Below, piece after piece: positions 20,634-53,430 of a stretch of 53,836 nucleotides of DNA; position 1 is the first letter of the stretch, and each line of letters opens with the position of its first letter. Location: positions 1 through 53,836 of the IMG/VR virus record IMGVR_UViG_3300045257_000186, one strand, 5' to 3'. The notes beneath the pieces were generated by a model. That model did not search any database. It was not told the origin of the DNA and saw nothing but the letters and a program-made list of their open reading frames with translations. This DNA is from a virus (lineage: Duplodnaviria > Caudoviricetes). The translations under genes and the position numbers were made by a program.

Positions 20634-22563
<1,930 letters not shown>

Positions 22564-23974: not shown

Positions 23975-24268
23975 ATGGAATTGCTCTGCATCATTTTCTT
24001 TCTCTGGCTGATTAGCTGCGCCTTTCCCTCTAGCGGCAGCGGCCACCATTTCGAGCCTATGATGGTTGTTGTGTTCATCGTTTGCGCAGCGGCGCTCGTT
24101 GGCTATGTAGCCATCGGTATTTACATTATGGCCGGCGTGGATTGGCTTACCGATAGCGGGTGGGTGGCTGTGCTCGCGGGAGCCGCATACTTCGTTGGAA
24201 CGATATGGTTGAATAAGTGGAACGCTGAAAGGCTGGATCGCCGAGATGAAGCGACGCGGCATAATTAA
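23975..24268 (+). CDS. membrane protein, possible holin
   Basis: Three hydrophobic segments, charged C-terminus, directly upstream of lysozyme; AGGAGG RBS region. Confidence 0.5.
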   Translation: MELLCIIFFLWLISCAFPSSGSGHHFEPMMVVVFIVCAAALVGYVAIGIYIMAGVDWLTDSGWVAVLAGAAYFVGTIWLNKWNAERLDRRDEATRHN

Positions 24269-24812
24269 ACGGCTCCGCGCGCTTGCGCCGATGACCGTCA
24301 GTCCGATCGGCGTCGAGAAGATCGTTCAGCGCGAGGGTGTCTACCTCCATGCCTATCAGGATACGGTGGGCGTTTGGACGATAGGGACCGGCCACACCTC
24401 GGCTGCGGGTCCGCCGCCGGTCTACCGGGGAATGACGATAACCGAGCAGCAGAATGAGCAAATCCTAGCGAACGACCTCAAACCGATTGTCGCGCAGCTT
24501 AACGCCACAATCCAGGTACCCTGCCTGCAAAACCAATTCGACGCCTTCGTATCGATCGTTTTCAACGTCGGCCCTAAATTCCTGCACTCGACTGCCATGC
24601 GGTTGTTCAATGCCGGCGACAATGCCGGTTGCGCCCAGGCGATCATGATGTGGCGGATTCCTCCGGAAATCATCGGACGGCGCAATACCGAGCGCATCCA
24701 GTTTTTGACGCCCTATCCGGTGGGTGCTAGAAGCGTACTTCGGCGTGGCAAGGTCAGGCAAAGGTTAGGCTCGGTTAGGCCTGGTGCGGCAAGGCGCGGC
24801 AAGGTGAGGTAA
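24246..24812 (+). CDS. endolysin, GH24 phage lysozyme (start may be 24291); C-terminal tail encoded by array D
   Basis: Catalytic E-x8-D-x5-T 'REGVYLHAYQDTVGVWTIGTGHT', 'QNQFDAFVSIVFNVG', 'RRNTER'. Confidence 0.9.
   Translation: MKRRGIIKRLRALAPMTVSPIGVEKIVQREGVYLHAYQDTVGVWTIGTGHTSAAGPPPVYRGMTITEQQNEQILANDLKPIVAQLNATIQVPCLQNQFDAFVSIVFNVGPKFLHSTAMRLFNAGDNAGCAQAIMMWRIPPEIIGRRNTERIQFLTPYPVGARSVLRRGKVRQRLGSVRPGAARRGKVR
24705..24733 (+). promoter_or_regulatory. sigma70-type promoter inside the lysozyme gene, pointing into GGYNN array D
   Basis: TTGACG-17 bp-TAGAAG, preceded by TGC; predicted start ~24740 at the first pentamer. Confidence 0.6.
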
Positions 24813-24817
24813 GGAAC
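24742..24817 (+). repeat. GGY-NN pentamer array D (putative guide RNA)
   Basis: GGCGT GGCAA GGTCA GGCAA(A) GGTTA GGCTC GGTTA GGCCT GGTGC GGCAA GGCGC GGCAA GGTGA GGTAA GGAAC: 14 GGY units plus terminal GGAAC. Confidence 0.9.
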
Positions 24818-24821
24818 TTCC

Positions 24822-25073
24822 GTGTCAACACAGCAACGATACTCGTTTTTAGCTAACGCCCTAGTCGGTTACGCGCATCAATGGATCGCCACGCTGCCCG
24901 GCTTCGAGCAATCCTTCATCCCGATGGAGAAAATACCAGCCGCGGCGGGCGCGCTGTCGAAATTCTGCGTCGATACGATCGATCAATACGACGCCAAGAA
25001 CCCACCCGTTCCCGCCCCCACGCCGCCCGCACCGGCCTCAACGCCGCTTAAACGAGGAAGGCCACGCAAATGA
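24822..25073 (+). CDS. hypothetical protein (its 5' end resembles the array D decoded target)
   Basis: GTG start after TAAGGA supplied by the array end. Confidence 0.65.
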   Translation: MSTQQRYSFLANALVGYAHQWIATLPGFEQSFIPMEKIPAAAGALSKFCVDTIDQYDAKNPPVPAPTPPAPASTPLKRGRPRK

Positions 25074-25309
25074 CGATTGATCCGAGAGTAGGGGCGTGGG
25101 TGAATTTCATTGTGCTGGTTCTGGGCGCTATCGGTGCTGGCACTGTAGTATTGGCGGGACTTCCAGACGCAACCAATACGATAATCAAGACGTGGGCGCT
25201 TAACGGCGTTGTTATCCTGTCTGCGGCTAACGTAGTGTTTCATCTTTACGACACGCCATCGGTTACGCCTACCGGCCTAAAGCGCATGGTCGCGCCGCCG
25301 CAGCCATGA
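25070..25309 (+). CDS. two-TM membrane protein, holin-like
   Basis: Two hydrophobic helices, in the lysis region. Confidence 0.55.
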   Translation: MTIDPRVGAWVNFIVLVLGAIGAGTVVLAGLPDATNTIIKTWALNGVVILSAANVVFHLYDTPSVTPTGLKRMVAPPQP

Positions 25310-25906
25310 ATGGCCGAACAGGTTGTCATTCAGTTTAGCACCACAGCGCACAATACCTGGCGATTGCGTTGGAAAAACCGTTGGTCAGAAGCCATCCGCC
25401 GCGCCGGCCATACTCAGTTTAGTCATTCCGATCTAGTGCTGGGGGACGGCTCTTTGCTAGGAGCGTCCAACAACCCCAAGGCTCCGGTTATTCGTGGCAA
25501 TCCCAATGGTGTCGCAATAAGGCCGCCAAACTATGAGCTGTGGGGCTACCGCCGTCGCATGGTTCTGGAAACACCACGGGCCAAAGACATCGAAAACCTA
25601 TGGCTGTCGCAAGTCGGCAAGGATTTCGACACAACCTTTATCTGGGATTTTGTCTCCGACAAGTGGCCGGGTGCCCGAGATTGGCGCCTTACCGACCGTT
25701 GGGTTTGTGCCGAAGGTATAACGTGGTCGATGGAGACGGCGGGCTTTTGGGCCGATGATTTTCCTGACGGCAAGCTGCCTTGGCCAAAAAATAGAGTTTC
25801 CCCGACCGATCTGCTATTAGTGCTGTTGACCGACCGCCGATGGGTAAATCGTGATACGTTCTGGAATGCCGTGCCGGGACTGAAACTCGATCCCGGCGAA
25901 ATCTAA
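25310..25906 (+). CDS. permuted papain-like (NlpC/P60-type) amidase
   Basis: His before Cys order: 'FSHSDLVL', 'QVGKDFD', 'WVCAE', 'VSPTDL'. Confidence 0.65.
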   Translation: MAEQVVIQFSTTAHNTWRLRWKNRWSEAIRRAGHTQFSHSDLVLGDGSLLGASNNPKAPVIRGNPNGVAIRPPNYELWGYRRRMVLETPRAKDIENLWLSQVGKDFDTTFIWDFVSDKWPGARDWRLTDRWVCAEGITWSMETAGFWADDFPDGKLPWPKNRVSPTDLLLVLLTDRRWVNRDTFWNAVPGLKLDPGEI

Positions 25907-25917
25907 GGGAGAACACC

Positions 25918-26103
25918 ATGCGGCTCCTGGTGGCGCTTTTGCTTCTATCGCTGATGTTTCCCTTGGGAGGCTGCGCCCTGATCGCCGCTGGCTTTGTCGG
26001 CGCCGCGTTGGAGCGTCATCAATGGGAACAGCAGCGTCAGCAATATTACTACCATCAGTGGGGACGCTACCGCCCAGCCTACTACTCAAACAGAGGACGC
26101 TGA
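25918..26103 (+). CDS. small lipoprotein-like protein
   Basis: Signal peptide with lipobox LGGC. Confidence 0.5.
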   Translation: MRLLVALLLLSLMFPLGGCALIAAGFVGAALERHQWEQQRQQYYYHQWGRYRPAYYSNRGR

Positions 26104-26105
26104 CC

Positions 26106-26447
26106 ATGCGTAAGATGACGATTGCTGCGGTTACGGCGCTGTCTTTGCTGACAGGGTGCAGCTCTGTCCAAATCACCAGTTTTCTAGCACAGGTGCAGGC
26201 GGACGCTGCGAGCCTTTGCCTGTTTGTGCCGACAATTGACACCATCCTCAATGTTGCCGCGGCTCTAGGAATACCGGCAACGGGAATTGCCGGGGCGGCT
26301 ATTAACACGGTCGCCGCTGCGATTTGCAGCCAAGTCCCGCCGCCTGCTTCGGCACGGTTCCGCTCGCTTGCCCCGCAAGGTGGTGGCCCGGCCAAGACTG
26401 TCGGCAACGTCAACGGCGTCCAGGTTAACGGCTGGCGCACGCACTAA
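26106..26447 (+). CDS. lipoprotein
   Basis: MRKMTIAAVTALSLLTGC lipobox; GAGGA RBS. Confidence 0.65.
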   Translation: MRKMTIAAVTALSLLTGCSSVQITSFLAQVQADAASLCLFVPTIDTILNVAAALGIPATGIAGAAINTVAAAICSQVPPPASARFRSLAPQGGGPAKTVGNVNGVQVNGWRTH

Positions 26448-27265
26448 TGCCCGACGACCTCGGTAAGCTCCCGCCGGTGCCTAACGCTGGCGTTCAGGAA
26501 CCGCTTGATCTCCCCGGCATGATGCTCGGCAAGCTCGGTGCCAAGTATATCAAAGGGGTTCCGGCGCTCGGGATTTACACCGCACAGCTACCCCCGCCGC
26601 CTGCATCGATCGCTTATAGCGGGGGATTACGCCAGCTTGGCCCGATGGCAAACGACAGGACGTCCGATTGCACTTGCGCGGCCTGCGGTCACGCCATCCA
26701 AGTATGGACATCAATGACCTCGGGAGAGGTTGTTGTGCCGGATGCGGCTATCGTCGATTTTTATTCACGCGAGTCCGGATACGTTCCCGGCGACCCCAAT
26801 ACCGACAATGGCGCGGTAGCGTCCGAGGTGCTGCTCTATTGGTACAAGAATCCGCTGGCCGGTCACGCGCTGGCTGGATTCGCCTCGATCCGCCCCGGCA
26901 ACCGCACCTCGATCCGCGATGCCATCTACCTGTTCGGCATTTGCTATCTCGGCGTGCAACTCCCTATTAGCGCCCAACGCGCTACGAGCTGGTCTTTGTC
27001 GCAAGACCAATCTCTGACCGGCTCTTGGGAGCCGGGCTCTTGGGGCGGCCACGCCATCCCGGCTTGCGATTATGACGAGAACGGCGTGACAGTCATTTCC
27101 TGGGGCAAACTGATAAAGGCATCATGGACCTGGCTGGACGCCTACATGGACGAGGGTTATGCGATTTTGTCTAAGGATTGGATGAACGCGCTCGATAATT
27201 CCCCGCCGGGGTTCGATTTTGCCGCCCTGGAAACCGACATGAACTCGCTGCGGGTATCGCCGTGA
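26447..27265 (+). CDS. papain-like (C1-type) cysteine peptidase
   Basis: 'NDRTSDCTCAACGH', 'WGGHAI...YD', 'ISWG' catalytic-motif spacing. Confidence 0.7.
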   Translation: MPDDLGKLPPVPNAGVQEPLDLPGMMLGKLGAKYIKGVPALGIYTAQLPPPPASIAYSGGLRQLGPMANDRTSDCTCAACGHAIQVWTSMTSGEVVVPDAAIVDFYSRESGYVPGDPNTDNGAVASEVLLYWYKNPLAGHALAGFASIRPGNRTSIRDAIYLFGICYLGVQLPISAQRATSWSLSQDQSLTGSWEPGSWGGHAIPACDYDENGVTVISWGKLIKASWTWLDAYMDEGYAILSKDWMNALDNSPPGFDFAALETDMNSLRVSP

Positions 27266-27492
27266 AATGGCTACTCGCCTTTGCTCTGGGCTTTGCCCTA
27301 GCCGGGTCTGTTCAGGCAATCAAAAAGGCATTTGGCGCCGGCCCCGACGCCTTCGTGCAAATGCTCGAGCGCAGGGAGGGCGTGTTCCCCGGCCAAACCA
27401 AGGTGCTGCCCGACTGCAACTGTACCGTGCGCTACCTTGGCACCGTCAGGCACGGTCGCGTATACTCAGTCCAAATTGAGAAGCTGGATTGA
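27262..27492 (+). CDS. hypothetical exported protein
   Basis: Signal-like N-terminus; GTGA overlap. Confidence 0.5.
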   Translation: MKWLLAFALGFALAGSVQAIKKAFGAGPDAFVQMLERREGVFPGQTKVLPDCNCTVRYLGTVRHGRVYSVQIEKLD

Positions 27493-27509
27493 GGAAACGC
27501 GGGGCATAA

Positions 27510-28241
27510 ATGCCAAAGCCAAACCAAACACCAGACGAGTCGATGGTGGGCCGATCCGGCATCCCGGTTGATTACGCCGGGGCGCCTACGGTTGACCCCA
27601 CTAAGAACGTCCTCGATCTGGTCCGCGCTGAAAGCAAATATCAGGATGCAATGCGCGATGCCCTCAACGATTATCAGAATGGAATGCGCGAGTCGCAAAA
27701 GGAATTCCAAAACTTTGCTCGCGATACACAAGCGACCTTCCAAAATCAGATGCGTGACGCTGAAACGCGCAGGCTAGACGAACTCGCGACGACCTCTAGG
27801 ATTTTTCAAGACACGATCCGCAATATGCTCGCCGAGTCAGTGCGAACGACCTCAGACCTCGTGAGCAACCAGCTTGTCCAGATTCAAGCCACATTCAACG
27901 AGCGCGTTAGTAAGCTAGAGGCGGGAGCGTTCATGGCGGCCGGGAAAAGCAGCGTTGCCGACCCCGCGCTCGCGGATGCTATGACGCGGATAACCAACGG
28001 CATCGCGGCGCTAGGCGCGTCAACAACAGAAACCCTAATGAAAATGCAGACCAGCAACGCGGAGGCGTGGCAAAAGCTATCGGCAAACATTGCTACCGTC
28101 GGTACAAAGGAATTGCAGACTAAAAGCGAACGCATGGGCCAGGGCCAGGTGATCGCTTGGATCATCGGCGCCGCGATGCTGATGGCCGCAATCGCAACCC
28201 CGCTTATTGCTTTCTTGGCACTAAGGCCGCCGCATCCATGA
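27510..28241 (+). CDS. coiled-coil protein with C-terminal TM anchor
   Basis: Heptad-rich helices and hydrophobic C-terminus. Confidence 0.65.
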   Translation: MPKPNQTPDESMVGRSGIPVDYAGAPTVDPTKNVLDLVRAESKYQDAMRDALNDYQNGMRESQKEFQNFARDTQATFQNQMRDAETRRLDELATTSRIFQDTIRNMLAESVRTTSDLVSNQLVQIQATFNERVSKLEAGAFMAAGKSSVADPALADAMTRITNGIAALGASTTETLMKMQTSNAEAWQKLSANIATVGTKELQTKSERMGQGQVIAWIIGAAMLMAAIATPLIAFLALRPPHP

Positions 28242-28354
28242 GCGTTCTGGTGGTCCTTCTCTTGTGGTCTATCCTCGTTCTTCTTTTGCTGCTGTTCCTG
28301 CTCTACAGGCCGCACTGATCTTGGGTTTGTCACAGAAAACTATTATATACGCCT

Positions 28355-28705
28355 ATGGCGTGGTTTTGGCCGGATCGGCTCGATCAGGTACTCGCGACAC
28401 AGCAGCAAATCCTGCGGCTGTTGCAACAGATCATCACAAAGGAGAATCAAATGGCAGTTAACCTTGCTGCGATCACCGCAGAAGTTGCCAATAACACCAG
28501 CGTAAGCCAAAGCGTCGTAACCCTTGTTCAAAACCTCGCGGCTCAGATCGCCGCGATCCCGCCGTCAAACGACCCGGTAACGCAAGCGGCGCTCGACCAG
28601 CTTACCCAAACCCTGACAACGAACGATGGCGCAATCGCCTCGGCCGTTACGGCGAATACGCCGGCCGCGCCGGCGCCGGCACCGGCGTCAGCCAGGAGCA
28701 AGTAA
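28355..28705 (+). CDS. hypothetical helical protein (alternative start 28451 with AAGGAG RBS)
   Basis: ORF, Ala/Gln-rich amphipathic helices. Confidence 0.55.
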   Translation: MAWFWPDRLDQVLATQQQILRLLQQIITKENQMAVNLAAITAEVANNTSVSQSVVTLVQNLAAQIAAIPPSNDPVTQAALDQLTQTLTTNDGAIASAVTANTPAAPAPAPASARSK

Positions 28706-28795
28706 CTTGCCCATAGTTGCCTAAATTCTGCCATCCGTGCATGTAGATTACGGACAGGGCTGCATTTACGCGGCCCTTTTCGCACGGAGGGTTCA

Positions 28796-29206
28796 ATGAG
28801 AGTTGCAATTATTCTGGCCACACTGGCGCTCGGCATAACGTCAGCACAGGCAAAATCTCATCACCGCCACCATTATCGGCACTACGCCCATCATCACCAC
28901 CACTCTCGACACTACGCATCGTACCACGACGGTCGGCCGTCCGCTTGGTGCGGCTGGTGGCTCAAGAATGCGCTTCACGTCGTTAACTCGAGCCTAAACC
29001 TCAATCTGGCGCGCGAGTGGAGGCTTTGGGGCCGCCCGGCATCCGGTCCGGCGCCTGGCGTGATTGGCGTAGAACCGCACCATGTTTTCAAGGTTATCGC
29101 CGTTGTCGGCCGCGGCCGTGTGCTTGCCATCTCCGGTAACGACGGTCACGCCGTCCGTACTAGGGTACGCTCAACGCGCGGGGTAATTGCGTGGAGGGAA
29201 GGCTAA
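28796..29206 (+). CDS. secreted His-rich CHAP/NlpC-like protein
   Basis: Signal peptide, His-rich linker, 'WCGW..AREW..WG..PG....HHV..ISGN'. Confidence 0.6.
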   Translation: MRVAIILATLALGITSAQAKSHHRHHYRHYAHHHHHSRHYASYHDGRPSAWCGWWLKNALHVVNSSLNLNLAREWRLWGRPASGPAPGVIGVEPHHVFKVIAVVGRGRVLAISGNDGHAVRTRVRSTRGVIAWREG

Positions 29207-29315
29207 TCCGGCGGTCTGATCCACATCGAGGGAGGGTCAGGTGGCTCCTGATTATCCCACCAGCAAACGAGAAACGCGGCGGTCGCAATGACCGCCGCGC
29301 CTATTTCGAGCCACG

Positions 29316-30239
29316 TCAGCAAGTGACCCCGATGTTTGATGGATCGCATTTGCGCGTCCCGGTGCCGCTCACAGTCGACGGACCTGGGCCGCTGGTGCCA
29401 ATGCCGATCGGACAGTTCGCGATAATGCTCGATCCGGTAATCTCCACGGCAGACAACGCCAGCCACCGGCAATTCTGAGACAGGATCGGTGCGCCAATGA
29501 CGCCGCCGATGATCTTGGTCATGCTCCGCGCCGGGCCCACGTCGTTGATGTAAATCGAATTTAAGTACGGTCCGCTAAAATCGGTCTCATCAAAGCCATT
29601 CTCGAAGCACGTCGAGTTTGGCGTGATGGCGACATAGACGCCGTAGGCTACAGGATTGCCGTTGTCGATCTTGTCGCGGATATACCAATTGCCAGAGGTG
29701 GTTAAGAGGCCGCCGCCAGTGGTCCCGACTCCGGCGAGATTGGAATTGAATACGGTGCCGTCGCAGCCGTTGTTCTGCAACGCAAACCGGCCGCCGACGA
29801 TATTGACGCTATCGAAATGAGTAACCGCGTTGGGGCCTACGACGACGCAATCATTGGCAGCAAAGGCCGATTGGCTACATACCACTGAGATATTCGCTAT
29901 CTTCTCGTACTCGTTGCCGTTACCGGAGGGCTTAGGGTTGGCATTGAGCGCGGTAAAATCGCCGCTTGTTGTGATCTGCGCGCACGCCTCGTTCGCGGCA
30001 TCAACCGTTGTGGCTGTATATTGCTGCAAAGTCATCGACGTGCCGTAGTTGCCGCAGGGGAACCACAGCCGGCCGCCGCCGTTGTCGCGCATCCAATTAA
30101 ACTGGCATGTGATCGCGGGACTATCGTCGGTGCCGCTGCCGGCGGCGGCGGGGCAACCGTGGTCCCCGGATTTGACGTTGGTGCCCCCAGCAAGGGCGGG
30201 AGCCGCGGCAAGGCATAGCAAGATTGCGAAGCGGTTCAT
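29316..30239 (-). CDS. secreted pectin-lyase-like beta-helix protein
   Basis: Signal peptide; 'GTDDSPAI....GGGRLWFPCGNY' pectate_lyase_3-type start. Confidence 0.65.
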   Translation of the reverse strand: MNRFAILLCLAAAPALAGGTNVKSGDHGCPAAAGSGTDDSPAITCQFNWMRDNGGGRLWFPCGNYGTSMTLQQYTATTVDAANEACAQITTSGDFTALNANPKPSGNGNEYEKIANISVVCSQSAFAANDCVVVGPNAVTHFDSVNIVGGRFALQNNGCDGTVFNSNLAGVGTTGGGLLTTSGNWYIRDKIDNGNPVAYGVYVAITPNSTCFENGFDETDFSGPYLNSIYINDVGPARSMTKIIGGVIGAPILSQNCRWLALSAVEITGSSIIANCPIGIGTSGPGPSTVSGTGTRKCDPSNIGVTC

Positions 30240-31525
30240 TTCTTCAATTCTCTCACGCGCTCGTTTTTAATATCCATCGCGTCGTCCAAGTTCTCGAAGG
30301 TCACGCCGCAGCGGTCGCGAAGATTGCGATCGGCGCGCCAAGCCTCTTCGAGGGCATCGACGGTAGTGACGAAAGCGAGCCACTTTCTCAGATAGGCGTG
30401 ATACTCGGCCGCGTTCCGCGGATTGAAAGCTTCCGGCTCGGTCATGGTTGAACTTGAGCTAATGACGGTACTTCCCGCGCCGCCACCACTTGCGGCCGGT
30501 GCCGGCGCGTTCACAGAGACATTCGTTACTTTTCCATGCTCAATGGTCGCCGTCGCATTGCCCGACGCTACCGTAATCTTGTCACTTTCCGGATATAGCG
30601 CCGGCGCCTCACCGGCATGTTTCTTAGTCTTTGGCCGACCGCGAACCTTTTTCGGCTTAACCTCGCCGGTTTGCTGATCGACCGTTTCCTCGTCACCCAA
30701 CGGGTTCGCCACCTTGTCGAACGCTCCCGCCGTCATACGGCGCGGGTCGGTTAATTCCTCCACCGTCACGCTGCCGTCCCGCAGCGCGCCGTACATGCCG
30801 CGCAACACCGGCAGATGTTCCAAGGTCAGGTCAGGCTCGCCTTTCAGCCCCAGAAGCGCGTAAATCTGGTCGGGCTTGATGCCGAATTGCGCGAAGGCTT
30901 TAATTGCTTTCCCTTTCCGCTCGGCAAAGGTTTCCTCGGTACCGCGGACAATTTGCAATGCCTTCTCATAGATCGGGAACCAAATAGCCCTCGGCACGGC
31001 GTTGAGGATCGCATTGCGCCGGGCGATCGAGGCCGCGGCCATGCCCGTAACCATAATCATGTCGTCGGAGAAGATTCGGCCGTACTTATCGACGATGCGC
31101 CGCTGTACCGGCAGCACTGTCTTGCGGTTGGTTTCGAGATCATGGAAGCCGCCCTCGGCTATCACAACCTTTTCATGGCGGTCGATGTGAACGATGCGAG
31201 CGCCGTCAGAGCAATTGCCCCAACACGACGCGATGATATTGGCGAAGCCGATGCTGGCACCGATGATCGGTTTGCCGCCACGCGGCAGGCTGTAAATGCA
31301 ATTCTCGGCCGCCTGTTCGTTGTAGCAGGCCAAGGTCTCGATTTTCTTAATGACCGTATCGAGTACCCGCGGATAGCGATGGGCTGTGGCAATCGCCTCG
31401 TCTATCTCCGCACGCGCCAAATCGACGGCGAGGCTTTGCTCGCCGAGCACTGTTGCCGGCAAATTAACAGCCTCCAGCTTGTGTTCATTTTGCATTTTCA
31501 TCTGCTCATTTCCATTGCCAGTCAT
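30236..31525 (-). CDS. conserved phage protein, putative single-strand annealing/recombination partner of the exonuclease
   Basis: 'RAEID..IATAHRYPR', 'YSLPRGGKPIIG', 'WGN'; AAAGGAG RBS; function inferred only from its position in the RecE-like operon. Confidence 0.55.
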   Translation of the reverse strand: MTGNGNEQMKMQNEHKLEAVNLPATVLGEQSLAVDLARAEIDEAIATAHRYPRVLDTVIKKIETLACYNEQAAENCIYSLPRGGKPIIGASIGFANIIASCWGNCSDGARIVHIDRHEKVVIAEGGFHDLETNRKTVLPVQRRIVDKYGRIFSDDMIMVTGMAAASIARRNAILNAVPRAIWFPIYEKALQIVRGTEETFAERKGKAIKAFAQFGIKPDQIYALLGLKGEPDLTLEHLPVLRGMYGALRDGSVTVEELTDPRRMTAGAFDKVANPLGDEETVDQQTGEVKPKKVRGRPKTKKHAGEAPALYPESDKITVASGNATATIEHGKVTNVSVNAPAPAASGGGAGSTVISSSSTMTEPEAFNPRNAAEYHAYLRKWLAFVTTVDALEEAWRADRNLRDRCGVTFENLDDAMDIKNERVRELKK

Positions 31526-31550
31526 CGATTGCTCCTTTCTTCGTCATATC

Positions 31551-31750
31551 TTTCCCTACCTCACCACGCCTTACCGGACCATGCCGGACCAAGCCACGCC
31601 CGACCCTGCCTAGCCGAGGCTTTCCCTACCTTGCCACACCATGCCAAGCCCAACCTGACCTTACCGGACCAGACCCCGCACTACCTTGCCGTGCCTGACC
31701 GTGCCGCGCCCTGCCACGCCATGCCTTGCCCCGCCCTGCCGCACCGGGCC
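31551..31750 (-). repeat. GGY-NN pentamer array A (three tandem putative guide units)
   Basis: 40 in-phase pentamers, 36 matching GGY, starting right after the RAMP gene stop; units end in GGTAG or GGTAG GGAAA. Confidence 0.92.
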
Positions 31751-32326
31751 TCAATCTCTCATGCGGTCCCACCGAACAACGCGAAATGTCCCGAAGGGTC
31801 CGCGCCGTTGCGGCCGAAAATCCCCAATTCCCTGCTGTTCACCGGCCTCAGTTAATAGTTGATGCACAAATTCCTCCGGTAGTAACTTATCGTTTATCGT
31901 CAGAGTGAATTGCGCAGACCAGACGTCAAATCGCGGGCGATGCCTCATTATTCTGCCCTTTGTCGCCGGGATTGACACCGGCCTACTATCAACTTCGAAA
32001 TCTGCCGCCAAGGTTTTGCCGTCGCCGTTCCGAACCGGAATATCGATCTCTTTGACCCTAACCGCAGCCGGCACGACATATTTGGCGGACTTCCGCGAGC
32101 CGCGTAATTTGTGTGCACCGCCCGCTTCTGTGATTGAGCTGGCGATCCAAGTACCGGGGAAATAAAAACCGTTTCCGTTTCTATAAACCACCTTCTCCGC
32201 TTGCTCCCGCGGTGTTCCACGATTTTGAATGATCGTCCGCGTGGTCGTATCGACTTCTGATCCTTCCTCAAACCGATGTTGCAGCATCGGCGTAATACCA
32301 ACAATTGCGCAATCAATCGTAATCAT
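31751..32326 (-). CDS. stand-alone RAMP/Cas7-like RNA-binding protein (Vipr-like effector)
   Basis: 'IVGITPMLQH' first strand, 'FYFPGTWI..SI..AG', 'RPRFDVWSAQFTL', Gly-rich loop 'AGEQQGIGDFRPQRRGPFGTFRV'; AAGGAGG RBS; flanked by pentamer arrays. Confidence 0.8.
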   Translation of the reverse strand: MITIDCAIVGITPMLQHRFEEGSEVDTTTRTIIQNRGTPREQAEKVVYRNGNGFYFPGTWIASSITEAGGAHKLRGSRKSAKYVVPAAVRVKEIDIPVRNGDGKTLAADFEVDSRPVSIPATKGRIMRHRPRFDVWSAQFTLTINDKLLPEEFVHQLLTEAGEQQGIGDFRPQRRGPFGTFRVVRWDRMRD

Positions 32327-32343
32327 AGTGTCCTCCTTCTCTG

Positions 32344-32418
32344 TTACCTGACCTCACCTCGCCATACCCAACCTCGCCTTGCCATGCCTCACCAAGCCTC
32401 ACCTCGCCGGGCCTCGCC
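32344..32418 (-). repeat. GGY-NN pentamer array B (putative guide RNA)
   Basis: 15/15 GGY pentamers, from the exonuclease stop to the RAMP RBS, ending GGTCA GGTAA. Confidence 0.92.
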
Positions 32419-33513
32419 TCAATTACGACCCCACCATGCCGGCATTTCCGCCAAATCCAATTCTTCTGGGGGGTCCAAGATCAGCCACATCTCGTTGGGG
32501 CCGAATTTGTCCATGAATGCGCGATAATTATCCGCCGCCTGATCGAGTGCGCGGCGCGCAACCTCGAGGATCGGGTTTGCAGGACTCAGGATGCGCGACC
32601 ACGTGACCGGTGCGCCCTCGCTCTGGAAAAACACCCATTGCCAGCCGAATTCTTTAGCCGCGGCGCATTTCTTTAAGAAAGCGAAAAGATCGATCGCGTT
32701 CGGAGGATTAAACCGCCCTTCGGCCATGAATTGCGGAATCATCGCCCGCGCCTCCATGTAGTGCGCCGCCTGTATTTCCATCCGACGTTGGGCAATGGCA
32801 ATCCGGCAGGCGGCCGGGAAAGCGAGTTCTCTGGTGTTGGCGATGCTTTTGAGATCGCCGATACCGCGCGGTTTAAGATAGTCGAGCCGCGCCTTGCGCC
32901 GCAGCCCGTCACGGGTCCAAAAGATCGAGATCTCGGGAAGCCCGCCGGTGAAGGCAGGCGCGAGCTTGGGGTTCTTGCTAATCATGGCCGACGCGATTAC
33001 GACGCGATCATAAGTCTCGGAGGGCAGTACCTCTTTCCCCATCTTTTCAGCTTCGGCATTGATCCGCTTGGTCTCTGCCGCCTTCTCAGACGACGGTGCG
33101 CCTTCCATCCAATCGCGCCCCCGCATATACCGCGCACTAAATGCCGCCTCGCCCTCCAGCACCATTTTGTGCATCGCCCGCCCGCGGAGCGTGGCTGGCG
33201 TGTCCCTGTCCTTCGGCCGCTGCGGGTTCATCGGGCTTTCCCACCAGAACGTAGCTGCGTTATCGACCAGCTTCCTCATGTCGGAACTACCCAAGGCGCT
33301 GTCAGCCCGATAAATCTCTTCGTCTAAATCCAGGTAAATGCCGTCCACGAGCGGCTCGACGTTGCCACCCATAGACGTGCCCGTAACCGCCGCCACTTCT
33401 TTCATTACATCTCCTATGTCTCCAGGTGATCTACCGTAGGGCGGCGGATAAGGGCCCGGCTCACCCATTAAATCACGGAACGCTTTGTTCAACCGCTCTT
33501 GGTCAATGGTCAT
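32419..33513 (-). CDS. RecE/exonuclease VIII-like PD-(D/E)XK nuclease
   Basis: 'IY....LGSSDMRKL', 'GRAMHKMVLE', 'EISIFW..KARLDYL..IGDLKS', 'QAAHY'; ATGA overlap with upstream gene. Confidence 0.8.
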   Translation of the reverse strand: MTIDQERLNKAFRDLMGEPGPYPPPYGRSPGDIGDVMKEVAAVTGTSMGGNVEPLVDGIYLDLDEEIYRADSALGSSDMRKLVDNAATFWWESPMNPQRPKDRDTPATLRGRAMHKMVLEGEAAFSARYMRGRDWMEGAPSSEKAAETKRINAEAEKMGKEVLPSETYDRVVIASAMISKNPKLAPAFTGGLPEISIFWTRDGLRRKARLDYLKPRGIGDLKSIANTRELAFPAACRIAIAQRRMEIQAAHYMEARAMIPQFMAEGRFNPPNAIDLFAFLKKCAAAKEFGWQWVFFQSEGAPVTWSRILSPANPILEVARRALDQAADNYRAFMDKFGPNEMWLILDPPEELDLAEMPAWWGRN

Positions 33514-33719
33514 GCCGTGGCCGCCTTTACCGCCCACATGGCGGCATCTTCGTAAGCGTCCTGCGCTAAATCGATTATGTGGAGTTTCACACTTGTCGCA
33601 CCCCCTCTCATTCCCTCGCACAAATCGATCAATTCAGCCGATTTCTGCTTAATCTGGCTCACGAGTGAATTGTCAGACGGATTGAATTTAACGCGAACGC
33701 GGTCCTCGCCGATGGTCAT
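33510..33719 (-). CDS. Acb2/Tad1-like helical-hairpin protein (putative nucleotide-signal sponge, anti-defence)
   Basis: 'GEDRVRVKFNPS..V.QIK..AELID', 'LAQDAYEDAAMWAVKAAT'; AGGAG RBS. Confidence 0.6.
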   Translation of the reverse strand: MTIGEDRVRVKFNPSDNSLVSQIKQKSAELIDLCEGMRGGATSVKLHIIDLAQDAYEDAAMWAVKAATA

Positions 33720-33737
33720 GTCCTGCTCCTAGAATGA

Positions 33738-33814
33738 TTGCCTATAATTATTCTTACGCCTCGCAATATTATTTGACAAGCGCCTATCTGGAAATTATAG
33801 GCAAAGTGTTGACA
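33738..33814. promoter_or_regulatory. divergent promoter region with 12-bp perfect inverted repeat
   Basis: TTGCCTATAATT (33738-49) and AATTATAGGCAA (33793-804); TTGACA(33773)-17-TATAGG on +; second TTGACA at 33809. Confidence 0.65.
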
Positions 33815-33867
33815 CCCTCTTTCCGGACCTATTTTGTGGCGTGCCCAAAGAAAAGGAGGGGGTGCAG

Positions 33868-34452
33868 ATGCAGAATGTTTGGCTCGAAAGCCAGATTGAA
33901 ACCATGAAACAAATGTTCAAAGATGGGTTTTCTCACGCACAAATTGGCCGATCGGTCGGCCGATCCCGCAATGCGGTTATCGGCAAAGTACACCGCATGG
34001 GGCTGCACATCGAGGGCCAAGAGCAGGGATACCGGCCGAAACCCCAGGGCGGCCGCGTCAGTTCCAAGTCCGCGATCAAACGACCGCGCAGCAAAGGGCG
34101 GCCGCAAGTCGGACGTTGCGAGCCGCTTCCTGAGACCCCTACCGCCCCGGATTCCAAATTCATCTCGCTCATCGAGCTTAGCCGGGGAACGTGCCATTTC
34201 CCGTATGGCGACCCGCAGGAGCCCGATTTTAGCTATTGTGGTGCGCCGGTCTGGGGTAAATCATCGTACTGCGCTTCTCACGCGCGGCTTTGTTACACCA
34301 CGGCGGCCGAGCGCCGGGCCGAGCGGGCGCAATACCAGGAGGAACCGACATGGGACGCAAGCCGAAAACTGATCCGCAAGCGCCGGGCGCGGACGCCGAG
34401 AGGCCGGGCGCAGGGCACAACCAGCTCTCCGACGACGACCTCCGAGAGTTAG
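33868..34452 (+). CDS. gcrA: GcrA-family cell-cycle transcription regulator
   Basis: 'W..QI..MKQMFKDGFSHAQIG..SRNAVIGKVHRMGL' and 'LIEL..TCHFPYGDP..DFSYCG..SYCASH'. Confidence 0.9.
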   Translation: MQNVWLESQIETMKQMFKDGFSHAQIGRSVGRSRNAVIGKVHRMGLHIEGQEQGYRPKPQGGRVSSKSAIKRPRSKGRPQVGRCEPLPETPTAPDSKFISLIELSRGTCHFPYGDPQEPDFSYCGAPVWGKSSYCASHARLCYTTAAERRAERAQYQEEPTWDASRKLIRKRRARTPRGRAQGTTSSPTTTSES

Positions 34453-34898
34453 CTTTCCAGCACAAGCAGCGATACATCACGGCGTTAGCGCGGAAAAAGA
34501 CCGCCGATGCGGATTTTAAGAACACCTGCAAGGCTGCGATGGCTGAAATGGGCCGGAGCGGCGTCGCCATCATTAAACACATGATCGCGTTGGACGACCC
34601 GGAGGGCGAGGCAGAGGTGCGTGCGGAGTTGATGCAGTACGCCAGTGCGTTGCGGTGGGCCAGCGTGCCGTTAGGGACACAGATCGAGTTTGCCCTGACC
34701 GAGCCAGATGAGACGCCATCCGTCGATCGCGCCTTTGACGAGGGTAAGCAGACCAGCATGGCCAATAGGCCAGCTAAACCTCCGTATAACCCCGAGAGTC
34801 CGCAATATAGGGCGTTCATGGACGGATACTCGGATCATCAGGCTACACTGGCCCAGCGCCTTGGGCATGGGAACGGCGACCAGCCGCGACCGGAATAA
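34350..34898 (+). CDS. GapR (DUF2312)-like nucleoid/DNA-binding protein with C-terminal extension
   Basis: 'GHN' motif, 'ADADFK..CK.A....G', AGGAGG RBS. Confidence 0.5.
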   Translation: MGRKPKTDPQAPGADAERPGAGHNQLSDDDLRELAFQHKQRYITALARKKTADADFKNTCKAAMAEMGRSGVAIIKHMIALDDPEGEAEVRAELMQYASALRWASVPLGTQIEFALTEPDETPSVDRAFDEGKQTSMANRPAKPPYNPESPQYRAFMDGYSDHQATLAQRLGHGNGDQPRPE

Positions 34899-34968
34899 GG
34901 ACACACCATGCTTCCCGCGCCGCAAATGGTGATGCTAGAGCCGTACTGAGCGGGATAGGGAGCGGCAA

Positions 34969-35250
34969 ATGATAATCCTCGACGTGCAACCTGTCGGCCA
35001 CAGTCAATTTACCGGCTCGGTCAATGGCGAGGCTCTTGTCGGTCCTACGCCAACTCCCTTCTTTGACGCCGCAAGACGCCTAATGGCGCGGGGTGAGCCC
35101 GCCGATGAGACTTTAGTGATGCGGCATCCCACAGGCACCCTCTCAATTAAAGCTGCCCTTGGCGATGCGGCGCGGCTTGGCGTGCGGGAAGGCAACGGAC
35201 AATTACGGATTGTCGCGTGGGAACCGTACAATGTTCATCGCGGCATTTGA
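34969..35250 (+). CDS. hypothetical protein
   Basis: 93 aa ORF, GGGAG RBS. Confidence 0.55.
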   Translation: MIILDVQPVGHSQFTGSVNGEALVGPTPTPFFDAARRLMARGEPADETLVMRHPTGTLSIKAALGDAARLGVREGNGQLRIVAWEPYNVHRGI

Positions 35251-35767
35251 CCTCGCTACCGCGACCGGCGTGTGCCACGGCACTGTCGGCGGAGTGCCGC
35301 ATGTATGGACGTGGTTTTTAAGCGATAGCGAAGGCGGCCGTCCGGTCAAGCTGGCCTACCTGCGCCGCCTACTCGACAAGTATTTCGAGTCCACCATAAT
35401 TGACGCGGTTTATTACGAGGCGCCGATGCCGCTGCGGGCGATGATGGAACGCGGCGCCAGCGAAGATGTGATTGCACTGCTGCGCGGTTCCATTGGGGTG
35501 CTCGAGAGTTGCGCCGCCCATGCTGGTATCCAGACGATTGAGGCGGTGTCGGTGCAGCGCGCTCGGACCGCGCTGATCGGCCGGCAAACCCGATCCAAGA
35601 TTAAGGGTGCGGGCAAGGAAGCGGTGCAAAGGGTTGCGAAAATGATGGGCGTTGCGGTTACGGACGACCACCAAGCCGACGCTTATGCGTGCTGGTTTTA
35701 CGCCTGCGCCAAGAACAACCCGCGACTAGCCCATATTTCGACGCCATTATTCGCGCGGCAAACTTAG
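35231..35767 (+). CDS. RuvC-like Holliday junction resolvase
   Basis: 'IAAFDLATATG', 'VYYEAP', 'DDHQADA' acidic catalytic motifs. Confidence 0.8.
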   Translation: MFIAAFDLATATGVCHGTVGGVPHVWTWFLSDSEGGRPVKLAYLRRLLDKYFESTIIDAVYYEAPMPLRAMMERGASEDVIALLRGSIGVLESCAAHAGIQTIEAVSVQRARTALIGRQTRSKIKGAGKEAVQRVAKMMGVAVTDDHQADAYACWFYACAKNNPRLAHISTPLFARQT

Positions 35768-35846
35768 TTCCTTACCTTACCGTGCCACACCTCGCCACGC
35801 CCCGCCATGCCATACCCGACCGCGCCGTACCCTACCATGCCACGCC
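35767..35846 (-). repeat. GGY-NN pentamer array C (putative guide RNA)
   Basis: 15/15 GGY pentamers (35772-35846) plus terminal GGAAC; convergent on the RuvC-like stop. Confidence 0.92.
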
Positions 35847-35912
35847 TTTTGGATAAGTCAGCCGCCGAAGGAAAGTTGCGCTACAATCCGCAGCGCTATT
35901 TGCAGGGAGGAC

Positions 35913-36244: not shown

Positions 36245-36685
36245 TCATAGCGAACCCCAATCCTCCGGCGACATAAGCGGCGACCCGGCCTCCGGCATTA
36301 CGGTACGCGGCTTTTTCGGCATCCGGCGCGCATAAGCCACATTCTGCCGTCTGATCCAAGCGCGCAGCTCTCCGCTCGGCGGTGATGGCGGTTCCTTACC
36401 CTCGCCATTAGGCCAGCGTTTGAATAGCTCCTTGAATTTCATCGACGCCCAACCCGGCTTGTAGCCTTTGATCTCGGCGTGTCTTTTGAGGCCGGCAAAT
36501 GTCTGGTGCCGGGCGAGTTCAGGGTCAATCCCCTCACGATCACCGCCGATGACCAAGCCGGGAAGCTTAGTGCGGCGGATCAAGCGGGGATGGCGGCACC
36601 CACATTTTCCACAGATAAATTGTTTCTTCGGGATCGGGCTCATTTCCCGCTGGTAGCCACATGAAATGCAGATCAGTAAACCCAT
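36245..36685 (-). CDS. zinc-ribbon protein resembling the C-terminal region of phage SF2 helicases
   Basis: CxxC..CxxC then 'KGYKPGWA..KFKE.F..WP'. Confidence 0.55.
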   Translation of the reverse strand: MGLLICISCGYQREMSPIPKKQFICGKCGCRHPRLIRRTKLPGLVIGGDREGIDPELARHQTFAGLKRHAEIKGYKPGWASMKFKELFKRWPNGEGKEPPSPPSGELRAWIRRQNVAYARRMPKKPRTVMPEAGSPLMSPEDWGSL

Positions 36686-45518: not shown

Positions 45519-46073
45519 ATGACACGGCCCGTCATATTTCGCTTTCTCTACGGAATGTGGGGCCCGCTCACTGACCCCGGTGCCCGCGAGTTCACCGACA
45601 AGGTAAAAGCCCTCGACGTAGGAGTACCGATCGACGTCGGCGAATCTCCCTATCGCGACTTCGACATTGCCAAGATCGCCAAGGATTTTACCGACGCACC
45701 ACCCGACGCCATCCGGCTCGGCGGCGGCTCATCGCTCGGCGCCAACAATATCGCCGCGATCGGCCAGTACGCGCCCTCCGTCACGATCCACGGTATTTGG
45801 GGCTTCCAAGCATCCGACGATGGTCTGAAAGCAGTGCTCGGCTCGACTTACGAGGGCGTCGCCAAGACAGTCCTGTTCGCTCACGAGGTCTATAATCCGG
45901 TCTGGCTGCAAACAATCGGGTTCGGTCACTACGAGTGGGTGCGCGCGCCGGGCAACATGCGGACCGGGCTCCGCGCTGACAAGCGGTACGACTTTCATCC
46001 GGGCGAGACCGAAGAGATACAGGCGATGTATCTGGCGGAAATCCAGCGCGTCATAGCCAAACCAGGAGATTGA
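45519..46073 (+). CDS. alpha/beta-hydrolase-like protein
   Basis: G-x-S-x-G-like 'GGSSLGA' and C-terminal His. Confidence 0.45.
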   Translation: MTRPVIFRFLYGMWGPLTDPGAREFTDKVKALDVGVPIDVGESPYRDFDIAKIAKDFTDAPPDAIRLGGGSSLGANNIAAIGQYAPSVTIHGIWGFQASDDGLKAVLGSTYEGVAKTVLFAHEVYNPVWLQTIGFGHYEWVRAPGNMRTGLRADKRYDFHPGETEEIQAMYLAEIQRVIAKPGD

Positions 46074-46074
46074 T

Positions 46075-46284
46075 GTGGCCGCACCCGTCATTCCGAACAC
46101 TGGCCCGCAGACCGTCACCGTCCTCACCGGCAACGAATTGATCTATTTCGAGTACGGCTCGCAGGACTTGCAGCGGATTAAGGCGTCGGACCTAGCTACC
46201 TATATCGCGACATTCCTTGCCGGGGCGACCGGCGCAACGGGGGCCACCGGTGCTACGGGTCCAGCCGGACCGACAGGCGCGTAA
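46075..46284 (+). CDS. minimal collagen-like fibre (shared N-terminal module + short GXT tract)
   Basis: Near-duplicate of the start of the next gene. Confidence 0.65.
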   Translation: MAAPVIPNTGPQTVTVLTGNELIYFEYGSQDLQRIKASDLATYIATFLAGATGATGATGATGPAGPTGA

Positions 46285-47292: not shown

Positions 47293-47294
47293 CG

Positions 47295-47651: not shown

Positions 47652-47652
47652 C

Positions 47653-48405: not shown

Positions 48406-48407
48406 CG

Positions 48408-51796: not shown

Positions 51797-51804
<8 letters not shown>
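50872..51804 (+). CDS. glycine-rich fibre-associated protein, paralogue of previous gene
   Basis: Same architecture, 'MIGGGGAGG', 'GARGEIWV'. Confidence 0.75.

Positions 51805-53430
<1,626 letters not shown>

What the first reader, a model, noticed from the sequence alone, without database searches (positions are those of the whole stretch)
24742..35846. Each decodable guide sits within ~150 bp of the locus it resembles: homing or marker-exclusion logic
Seen: arrays B, C and D lie about 15-150 bp from their best gapped match. The match is always on the coding strand, in frame, with the wobble base skipped, and always imperfect to self. The RAMP gene is inserted between a RecE-like exonuclease and its putative annealing partner. 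Established: free-standing homing endonucleases in T-even phages target neighbouring-gene alleles of co-infecting relatives and spread with the resistant allele. Inference: the arrays may be programmable selfish elements that stay linked to an immune allele. They could block the competitor's allele or bias recombination in mixed infection. No dedicated nuclease partner is evident.
Basis: inference. Interest (0 to 1): 0.85.

Follow-up and report, generated by a model that had tools for sequence, protein, structure and literature searches.

The report
VIPR guide arrays beside look-alike genes
A soil phage carries the recently described VIPR RNA-guided DNA-silencing system, and two or three of its six guide RNAs lie right next to the phage's own mismatched copy of the gene they seem built to silence in rival phages.

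Summary
The arrays are real. Four loci of GGYNN pentamers (at least six guides) lie around and away from a 191-aa gene whose model folds like Csm3/Cas7. This is a VIPR system (Vipr protein plus vrRNAs).

I decoded the guides again by that rule. The proximity claim holds for some guides only:
- Guide D: its single best match in the contig (21/30) lies 105 bp away, in frame in the RuvC-like gene.
- Guide C: five perfect units lie 11 bp away, at the end of the RecE-like gene.
- The three B guides show nothing beyond chance.

Copies of the same genes in related phages match better than self (D 25/30; C 16/18 over nine units). So these guides most likely silence relatives' copies, while the carrier's own copy is mismatched.

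Adjacency is not a family rule. 147 guides from 80 related loci plus this window, and separately a 112-kb phage, show no enrichment. No nuclease partner was found, and homing is unsupported.

Verdict: a known system and a new member of it. The guide-beside-immune-allele layout is a modest new lead.

The parts
24246..24812 (+). Endolysin gene. Its reading frame runs on through array A, giving a basic C-terminal extension of about 25-30 residues.
   Evidence: Pfam Phage_lysozyme E 3.7e-30 and phrog_7. The homologue in relative G006 stops about where the array begins, and the next gene starts 3 bp later.
24742..24817 (+). Orphan vrRNA array A: 14 GGYNN units, one of them with an extra base, plus a short end unit.
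   Evidence: It is absent at the same gene junction in the syntenic relative G006.
24828..24868 (+). Near-cognate self site of guide A: 16/28, in frame, at codons 3-16 of the 83-aa ORF 24822-25073.
   Evidence: top protein-level hit in the contig (z 5.9). It is marginal by shuffles (p 0.07-0.09).
30236..31525 (-). 429-aa gene downstream of the VIPR cassette (phrog_3657, function unknown). Its role as an annealing protein is not shown.
   Evidence: There is no Pfam or PDB sequence match. The protein atlas gives only a weak Rad52_Rad22 lead (score 0.76).
31556..31750 (-). vrRNA arrays B1 (31681-31750, 14 units), B2 (31626-31675, 10 units) and B3 (31556-31615, 12 units). They start directly after the vipr stop codon.
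   Evidence: No self match or relative match beyond chance was found.
31751..32326 (-). vipr: a 191-aa minimal RAMP protein.
   Evidence: phrog_4652. More than 1430 homologues, all unnamed. AlphaFold2 pLDDT 81. Foldseek gives 47 PDB hits at E <= 0.001, and the listed ones are Csm/type VII backbone subunits. tblastn finds 28% identity to a SUSP2 protein flanked by GG runs.
32344..32418 (-). vrRNA array C: 15 units, lying between the RecE-like gene and vipr.
32429..32472 (-). Near-cognate self site of guide C: the last codons of the RecE-like gene. Five consecutive perfect units; 14/30 overall.
   Evidence: The homologous site in G006 matches the guide's first nine units 16/18. It is the only position of 90,690 that reaches 14 or more, and 2 of 1000 shuffles reach 16.
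32419..33621 (-). RecE-like exonuclease gene. The true start may lie downstream, because the G006 homologue has 325 aa.
   Evidence: phrog_412 exonuclease VIII, E 1.5e-34. Alignment with G006: 66% identity.
35231..35767 (+). RuvC-like resolvase gene (178 aa).
   Evidence: phrog_159, E 7e-13. 42 homologues were found.
35624..35667 (+). Near-cognate self site of guide D: 21/30, in frame, on the coding strand.
   Evidence: The homologous sites in relatives score 25/30 (G007/L091), 22 (L092) and 21 (G006).
35767..35846 (-). Orphan vrRNA array D: 15 units plus an end unit. It is antisense to the flanking genes and convergent with the RuvC-like gene.

Best explanation
**What it is.** The locus is a VIPR system. 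Vipr is a small RAMP protein. It should coat RNAs made of GGYNN units and present the two variable bases of each unit. DNA is then read two bases in every three, with the skipped base falling on the codon wobble position. This step is taken from the preprints and is not shown here.

**Layout.** The phage has one cassette (array C, vipr, arrays B) sitting between a RecE-like gene and a 429-aa gene. It also has two orphan arrays, A and D, elsewhere in the contig.

**Likely targets.** Guides D and C, and probably A, are aimed at coding sequence of the same gene families that abut them:
- D: the RuvC-like resolvase
- C: the end of the RecE-like exonuclease
- A: the start of an 83-aa ORF in the lysis region

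The phage's own copies differ at amino-acid-determining positions and stay at or below 70% match. Copies in related phages match better.

**Likely function (inferred).** The guides silence those genes in co-infecting or resident relatives. Self-immunity comes from mismatch.

**Why guide and mismatched copy lie side by side.** This is not settled. I favour selection for linkage: a recombinant carrying the guide but the sensitive allele would target itself. This layout affects a minority of guides and is not a rule of the family.
For: **System identity**
- The protein model folds like Csm3/Cas7.
- 80 of 80 viral loci with a homologue carry period-5 GG arrays. In 75 of 80 a strict array lies on the same strand within 250 bp.
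- 0 arrays were found in 15 RuvC loci and in G006/G007, which lack vipr.
- The published system has the same parts and the same rule.

**Skip rule**
- For D, only the one-base skip gives an outlier. Skips of 0 and 2 score 18-19, and a skip of 3 only re-finds the array itself.

**Targets**
- D's top hit in three separate genomes is the homologous RuvC site: self 21/30, G006 21/30, G007 25/30. The runners-up score 18-19, and 0 of 1000 shuffles reach 25.
- In the alignment of 42 RuvC homologues, several alleles carry the residues the guide encodes where self differs. The best alleles agree at 10/15 codons, self at 9/15.
- C's first nine units score 16/18 at the end of RecE in G006, against 13/18 for self.
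- Sites A, C and D are all in frame on the coding strand.

**Proximity**
- 2 of 6 guides (A, D) have their genome-wide best protein-level hit within 105 bp of the array. About 0.7% of the contig lies that close to a given array (my arithmetic).
- As a control, 6 of 144 guides from other phages have their top hit within 200 bp of a window array, against 3.8% expected.

**Relatives coexist**
- In the one run that holds the stretch, 34 of 62 laid contigs are under 99% alike. That run may be the source of this DNA.
Against: - **No perfect target was found.** Only one hit reaches the 80% used in the preprints. It is D in G007, an 11.7-kb fragment whose RuvC is only 45% identical.
- **G006 is not a target by the 80% criterion.** It is the syntenic relative that lacks VIPR, yet it scores no better than self for D (21/30) and only 17/30 for C.
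- **C's last six units match nothing at the RecE site.** The cryo-EM preprint describes unwinding that proceeds from the 3' end of the guide.
- **A is marginal** (p 0.07-0.09), and its only two homologues do not fit better than self.
- **B1-B3 have no candidate target** anywhere in the sequence held.
- **There is no family-wide enrichment of nearby matches.**
  - Best NN hit within 300 bp: 18/142 observed against 11% in shuffles.
  - Protein level: 12/142 against 11%.
  - Flank test: p < 0.01 in 3/147 guides against 1.5 expected.
  - No adjacent match among 29 arrays of the 112-kb phage G002.
- **Expression and binding are untested.**
Confidence: 0.55

Rival explanations
1. Self-regulation. 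The partial matches are functional. Vipr-guide complexes bind the phage's own RuvC-like, RecE-like and 83-aa genes weakly, to tune or time their expression or to block read-through at gene ends.
For: - All three sites lie at gene ends that flank the array.
- D has a core of seven units with 13/14 matches, and C has five perfect units.
- In the L058-L071 clade a guide keeps 14-15/20 to the end of the upstream gene in 9 of 11 loci. One substitution is mirrored in guide and gene in L066.
Against: - Non-self alleles match better than self for D and for C's first nine units.
- The first preprint reports that disturbing NN pairing abolished silencing, and that no self hit reached 80%.
- A later preprint reports self scores lower than non-self scores as a way to avoid autoimmunity.
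Confidence: 0.12
2. Homing or marker exclusion. Binding at the rival's allele provokes breakage or recombination. The guide and its linked resistant allele are then copied into the rival genome.
For: - The guide abuts a mismatched allele of its target gene family.
- Array A is a clean insertion of about 85 bp at a gene junction that is 3 bp wide in G006. The cassette C-vipr-B replaces two small ORFs in G006.
- The arrays lie in or near a recombination module: RecE-like, RuvC-like and HNH genes.
Against: - The element contains no nuclease. Pfam finds nothing in Vipr, and arrays A and D carry no ORF.
- RecE-like and p429 homologues are missing next to vipr in 80 and 79 of 80 loci.
- No conserved neighbour gene exists across those loci.
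- The published activity of the studied types is silencing.
- Adjacency is not general.
Confidence: 0.12
3. Historical accident of acquisition. Guide and neighbouring gene segment arrived together by recombination with a relative, or the guide arose near the gene by an unknown local process. The adjacency is a footprint and is not maintained by selection.
For: - The VIPR cassette and the orphan arrays are insertions relative to G006.
- vipr cassettes sit in unrelated neighbourhoods in 80 loci.
- Only a minority of guides show adjacency.
Against: - Three separate sites in one genome show the same layout, all in frame.
- Similar isolated cases occur in unrelated loci: L049 at 132 bp, L029 at 135 bp with 16/20, and the L059 clade.
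- A guide copied from the local sequence should match self best, and it does not.
Confidence: 0.1
4. Chance. The nearby resemblances are the best of many noisy matches and mean nothing.
For: - A and C are marginal on overall score.
- B1's 17/28 match at 147 bp is at chance level.
- There is no global enrichment among 147 guides.
- C also has equal or better-scoring sites far away at the protein level, at 42031-42075 and 36341-36385.
Against: - D is a unique outlier in three genomes at one homologous site.
- C's first nine units are a unique outlier in G006, at the site homologous to the adjacent self site.
- All three sites are in frame on the coding strand, which has odds of 1 in 6 each (my arithmetic).
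Confidence: 0.08

Closest known systems
VIPR systems (Vipr protein + vrRNA), bioRxiv 10.64898/2026.04.26.720920 and 10.64898/2026.04.26.720927
   Same: - A minimal RAMP protein of about 20 kDa.
- Tandem GGYNN/YNNGG units on the vipr strand, upstream and downstream of the gene.
- Variable NN positions.
- Matches to coding DNA with one skipped base falling on the wobble position.
- No self hit at 80% or above.
- Encoded by a phage.
   Different: - Sequence similarity to the SUSP-type protein is weak: 28% over 71% of the length, E about 3e-4.
- No conserved accessory (vap) gene in 80 loci of this clade.
- Spacers between arrays are very short, and no tail structure was tested.
- I could not assign one of the seven published types, because that rests on figures and supplements I could not see.
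Solo / orphan vrRNAs of SUSP1-like phages and satellites, bioRxiv 10.64898/2026.10.15.759431
   Same: - Arrays stand away from any vipr gene.
- Guides are aimed at close relatives.
- The self score is lower than the non-self score, which avoids autoimmunity. In that work, solo guides sit where vipr was deleted and target relatives' vipr.
   Different: - Here the carrier still has vipr.
- The apparent targets are recombination and lysis-region genes, not vipr, vrRNAs or satellites.
- The guide lies 11-105 bp from the carrier's own mismatched copy. I did not find this layout mentioned in the main text of the two VIPR preprints I word-searched.
Free-standing homing endonucleases and marker exclusion in T-even phages (recalled, not looked up here)
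   Same: A small selfish insert lies next to a resistant allele of the gene it attacks in relatives.
   Different: - There is no nuclease.
- Recognition is by RNA.
- The known output of VIPR is silencing.
- No evidence of gene conversion was found.
Class 1 CRISPR backbone (Cas7/Csm3 on crRNA)
   Same: - The RAMP fold.
- One protein subunit per short RNA period, with bases flipped out at fixed intervals (the preprints' description).
   Different: - No repeat-spacer array: the only tandem repeats in the region have periods of 5-25 bases.
- The period is 5 bases, not 6.
- Recognition is gapped.

Membership tests
VIPR | Vipr protein with a minimal RAMP fold (RRM core, glycine-rich loop, thumb) | tested here: met
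   - AlphaFold2 model: pLDDT 81, pTM 0.75.
- Foldseek against the PDB gives 47 hits at E <= 0.001. The listed ones are Csm3 / type VII Cas7 chains, TM 0.41-0.61.
- Conserved glycines G162, G166 and G168 and D169 lie near the C-terminus, and H17 is nearly invariant.
- I did not inspect the thumb separately.
VIPR | Sequence relation to published Vipr proteins | tested here: met
   - tblastn hits 127 phage records, including Escherichia phage SUSP2, at 28% identity over 71% of the query, E 3e-4.
- That SUSP2 gene has same-strand GG period-5 runs on both sides.
- SUSP1 itself was not among the 25 rows listed.
- The match is weak.
VIPR | Tandem YNNGG units, about 9-16 per vrRNA, beside vipr on its strand | tested here: met
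   - Arrays of 10-15 units sit directly before and after the gene.
- The same holds in 75 of 80 related loci under a strict scan, and in 80 of 80 when one miss is allowed; in one locus the array is on the opposite strand.
VIPR | GGY conserved, NN hypervariable | tested here: met
   Over 3231 units, position 3 is C or T in 3162, and positions 4 and 5 use all four bases. Caveat: the parser demanded GG, and Y in at least 80% of an array's units.
VIPR | Conserved structured 3' tail after the repeats | tested here: inconclusive
   The arrays share short end units (A with D; B2 with B3). Spacers between arrays are only about 10 bases long. I ran no folding or covariation test.
VIPR | Targets follow the one-base-skip rule, with the skip on the codon wobble | tested here: met
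   - D gives an outlier only at a skip of 1.
- Sites A, C and D are in frame.
- D scores 25/30 in G007.
VIPR | Accessory vap gene next to vipr ('typical' in the preprint, not universal) | tested here: not met
   Apart from vipr itself (and its antisense frame), no gene family is shared by more than 26 of 81 loci within 3.5-4.5 kb, and the window shares none of them.
VIPR | vrRNAs are made, bind Vipr and direct DNA binding | not testable with these tools
   No RNA data were available. This needs small-RNA sequencing, pull-down and reporter assays.
Free-standing homing endonuclease / marker exclusion | A site-specific nuclease encoded in the insert | tested here: not met
   Arrays A and D hold no gene. 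Vipr has no Pfam family. The RecE-like neighbour is absent from 80 of 80 other vipr loci.
Free-standing homing endonuclease / marker exclusion | The target is the relatives' allele of an adjacent gene, and the carrier's own allele is resistant | tested here: inconclusive
   This fits D and, in part, C and A. It does not fit B1-B3. Resistance of the self allele is inferred from mismatch only.
CRISPR-Cas | Repeat-spacer array with repeats and spacers of about 20-40 bases | tested here: not met
   Tandem Repeats Finder reports only units of 5-25 bases at the array sites. I did not search the whole window for cas1/cas2.

The most novel reading that the evidence does not exclude
Orphan vrRNAs are programmable poison-antidote modules. 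Each guide travels as a unit with the mismatched ('antidote') allele of the gene it silences in relatives. In mixed infections the guide-plus-allele block then replaces the rival's allele by ordinary phage recombination. This would be an RNA-guided, nuclease-free counterpart of homing-endonuclease marker exclusion, and a way for single guides to spread through a phage population without vipr moving with them.
Probability: 0.18. Interest if true: 0.75.

Novelty: new member of a known kind. Interest (0 to 1): 0.4.

Why it matters
VIPR was described only in 2026, and its natural targets are known for a few enterobacterial and Pseudomonas clades.

This locus adds a divergent clade without an accessory gene, probably from a phage of Alphaproteobacteria (GcrA gene). 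In it, guides seem aimed at core recombination genes of sister phages rather than at satellites.

If guide-beside-resistant-allele is a selected layout, it gives a simple, testable rule for how guides avoid self-targeting after recombination. It would also explain how single guides disperse in phage genomes.

If it is not selected, the locus is an ordinary further example of VIPR.

Tried and rejected
**First idea, dropped.** I first thought the pentamers were binding arrays for a ring or filament RNA-binding regulator (TRAP- or CsrA-like) or for a ribbon-helix-helix DNA binder. I dropped this after the RAMP fold and the preprints.

**Translation of the arrays as peptide repeats.** Only array A lies in an open frame, so I rejected this as a general reading.

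**Searches that gave nothing**
- Rfam: 0 families.
- Megablast of 18 kb against phage genomes: no match.

**Cross-search of 241 guides against 80 loci plus the window, at 80% or more.** It gave 70 hits, all from guides of 8-11 units scoring 80-86% (13/16 to 19/22). I took these as chance level.

**Searches for more alleles**

| Query | Collection | Result |
|---|---|---|
| RuvC, single protein | viral contigs | none |
| 83-aa ORF | viral contigs | none |
| RuvC, tblastn | isolated phages | none |
| RuvC alignment | 401 genomes of one class | 2 distant hits, D 17/30 |
| RecE alignment | viral contigs | 2 loci |
| RecE alignment | species genomes | 1 locus |

**p429 as an annealing protein.** No Pfam or PDB sequence match was found, only a weak atlas lead.

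**Sequencing runs.** No RNA holder was listed. The single DNA holder may be the source sample, and its contigs gave no array-level variant.

**Steps not run**
- A scan of the public collections with the decoded guide patterns. This is the method of the preprints. It would have meant typing a joined or changed sequence, so the natural targets of B1-B3 remain unknown.
Type assignment and target tables there may bear on novelty.

Full report
**What is in the sequence**

The window is a single 53.8-kb viral contig. Four places carry runs of five-base units that begin GG on one strand:
- 24742-24817 on the + strand (array A);
- 31551-31750 on the - strand (B, three sub-arrays of 14, 10 and 12 units);
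- 32344-32418 on the - strand (C, 15 units);
- 35767-35846 on the - strand (D, 15 units).

The third base of a unit is nearly always C or T. The last two bases vary.

B and C flank a 191-aa gene (31751-32326, - strand) with these properties:
- It has no Pfam family, but it belongs to phrog_4652 and to a family of more than 1430 unnamed proteins.
- Its AlphaFold2 model (pLDDT 81) is matched in the PDB by Csm3 / type VII Cas7 backbone subunits: 47 hits at E <= 0.001.
- In 80 of 80 viral loci that encode a homologue I found such arrays. In 75 of 80 a strict array lies on the gene's strand within 250 bp.
- Loci and genomes without the gene had none: 15 RuvC loci, G006 and G007.

So the 'RAMP gene plus arrays' part of the finding is solid.

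**It is a known system**

A full-text search led to bioRxiv 10.64898/2026.04.26.720920. I read its outline, the whole Results, the Discussion, Methods sections 18, 20 and 27, and word-search passages.

It describes VIPR:
- a phage-borne minimal RAMP protein (Vipr);
- vrRNAs of 9-16 YNNGG units;
- recognition of double-stranded DNA by the NN pairs with one target base skipped per unit;
- the skipped base mostly on the codon wobble;
- natural targets in competing phages and satellites;
- transcriptional silencing as the shown activity;
- no self hit at 80% or above.

Two companion preprints add detail:
- 10.64898/2026.04.26.720927 gives the filament and triplex mechanism. I saw its abstract, outline and word-search passages.
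- 10.64898/2026.10.15.759431 describes solo vrRNAs, including guides whose self score is lower than their score on rivals. I saw its abstract, outline, sections 8, 9 and 17, and word-search passages.

The window's protein is weakly similar to a protein of Escherichia phage SUSP2 that is itself flanked by GG runs (28% identity over 71%, E 3e-4).

**Testing the proximity claim**

I decoded six guides by coordinates. I scanned both strands of the contig with skips of 0-3 bases, using shuffled guides as the null.

- **Guide D**
  - It has one outlier, at a skip of 1 only: 21/30 at 35624-35667 (+). This is the only one of 107,586 positions to reach 21; the next best is 18.
  - The site is 105 bp from the array, in frame, on the coding strand of the RuvC-like gene.
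  - Restricted to 200 bp of flank, 0.07-0.13% of 3000 shuffles do as well.
  - At the level of encoded residues it is the top of all six-frame positions (z 6.8, next 4.8; p 0.001).
- **Guide C**
  - It is unremarkable overall (14/30).
  - It has five consecutive perfect units 11 bp from the array, in frame, in the last codons of the RecE-like gene (local p 0.010).
  - At the residue level two distant sites score higher.
- **Guide A**
  - It scores 16/28 at a site 16 bp downstream, in frame at codons 3-16 of the next ORF.
  - This is the best residue-level hit in the contig, but the score alone is marginal (p 0.07-0.09).
- **Guides B1-B3**
  - They have nothing. The 17/28 match 147 bp from B1 is out of frame and is equalled at 10 positions.

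So the claim holds well for one guide and in part for two more. It fails for three.

**Do relatives carry better targets?**

*RuvC (guide D).*
- An alignment of 42 RuvC-like homologues shows that, at several codons where guide D disagrees with self, the guide encodes the residue common in the family. The best alleles agree at 10/15 codons and self at 9/15.
- In DNA fetched through that alignment, D's best hit in each close homologue is the homologous site: 25/30 in G007 (L091), 22/30 in L092 and 21/30 in G006.
- In G007 the runner-up is 18, and 0 of 1000 shuffles reach 25.

*RecE (guide C).*
- The first nine units of C match the end of the RecE-like gene of G006 16/18, against 13/18 for self.
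- That is the only one of 90,690 positions to reach 14 or more, and 2 of 1000 shuffles reach 16.
- The last six units of C match nothing there.

*83-aa ORF (guide A).*
- Only two homologues of the ORF exist in the protein collection, and neither fits better than self.

No perfect target was found for any guide. Nothing at all was found for B1-B3 in the sequence I held.

**Insertions relative to a sister phage**

G006 is a 45-kb contig collinear with the window. It has no vipr and no arrays.
- Its endolysin gene stops 3 bp before the homologue of the 83-aa ORF. In the window, array A (about 85 bp) sits at that junction, and the endolysin frame runs on through it.
- Between its RecE-like and p429 homologues, G006 has two small ORFs where the window has C-vipr-B.
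- RecE-like or p429 homologues lie next to vipr in 0 and 1 of 80 other loci, and no neighbour gene is conserved.

The cassette is therefore mobile. Its place 'between exonuclease and partner' is particular to this phage. p429 is not shown to be an annealing protein.

**Is adjacency a rule of the family?**

No.
- For 142 distinct guides from the 80 loci and the window, the best self match lies within 300 bp of an array in 18 cases. That is 12.7%, against 11.2% for shuffled guides.
- At the residue level the figures are 12 of 142, against 10.7%.
- A flank-restricted test gives p < 0.01 for 3 of 147 guides, where 1.5 are expected.
- A complete 112-kb phage (G002) with 29 arrays in eight clusters has no adjacent match. 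It has only 13 self hits at 16/20, which is about chance.
- Guides of other phages laid on the window fall near its arrays at the expected rate: 6 of 144, against 3.8%.

Isolated parallels do exist:
- L049: 132 bp away, z 4.3.
- L029: 16/20 at 135 bp.
- A clade of 11 loci (L058-L071) in which 9 keep a guide at 14-15/20 to the end of the upstream gene. One change is mirrored in guide and gene.

**Reading**

Taken from the preprints and not shown here: Vipr polymerises on each vrRNA and reads DNA two bases in three.

Inferred from my data:
- Guides D and C, and perhaps A, are aimed at RuvC-like, RecE-like and lysis-region genes of related phages.
- The carrier's own alleles escape through non-synonymous differences.

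The side-by-side layout could be selected. Recombination that separates a guide from its resistant allele would create a self-targeting genome, so tight linkage pays. It could also be a relic of how the pieces were acquired, or reflect weak self-regulation.

Better matches to non-self than to self argue against self-regulation and against local copying.

Nothing supports DNA cutting or gene conversion, so the homing part remains a hypothesis.

**Novelty and limits**

The system, the decoding rule, self-avoidance and orphan guides are in print.

I did not find the placement of a guide next to the carrier's own copy of its target gene in the main text of the two preprints I word-searched. The terms were 'adjacent', 'neighbo(r)', 'homing', 'allele' and 'linked'/'linkage'. 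A search for other VIPR papers turned up nothing further. The supplements were closed.

The evidence for that layout rests on one strong and two weaker cases in one contig, plus a few scattered parallels. It stands against a null result in the family-wide tests.

I could not scan the large collections with the decoded patterns without typing a changed sequence, so the true targets are still open.

Noticed in passing
window 24730-24817: The endolysin reading frame continues through array A and ends at a stop codon inside the array. This gives an arginine/lysine-rich tail that the G006 homologue lacks. I do not know whether the tail is made or matters for lysis.
   Followed up: partly
window 31676-31680: Between B1 and B2 a single unit has lost its GG. 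B1 and B2 may therefore be one 25-unit array with a decayed unit, or two guides.
   Followed up: partly
G002 (loci L105-L110), 62-110 kb: A complete 112-kb phage with direct terminal repeats carries at least 29 GGYNN runs in eight clusters, all on one strand. They lie up to 42 kb from its vipr gene.
   Followed up: partly
loci L058-L071, about 200 bp upstream of the arrays: In 9 of 11 related loci, one of the arrays just upstream of vipr matches the end of the upstream gene 14-15 of 20 (15/22 in L066). In L066 a valine-to-alanine change in the gene is mirrored by the matching change in the guide.
   Followed up: partly
window 30829-30884 and 32782-32971: The one sequencing run that holds the stretch also has contigs that differ from the window, mostly at every third base, in the p429 and RecE-like genes. 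So close relatives coexist in that sample. The run may be the source of the window.
   Followed up: no
window 35878-35896, - strand: A terminator-like hairpin lies just upstream of array D on D's strand. It could end the leftward operon, or it could mark the start of the D transcript.
   Followed up: no
window 33841-34452: The contig has a GcrA-family regulator gene (Pfam E 5.8e-33). The only genome-collection hit for the RecE-like gene was an Alphaproteobacteria MAG. Together these hint at an alphaproteobacterial host.
   Followed up: no
window 20971-22563 and 46000-53800: Long Gly-X-Y (collagen-like) nine-base repeats occur in large ORFs, probably tail fibre genes.
   Followed up: no
window 42031-42075 and 36341-36385, - strand: Guide C's two best residue-level self matches lie far from the array. 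The first is antisense to a + strand ORF, and its skipped base falls on codon position 1. I took both as chance.
   Followed up: partly
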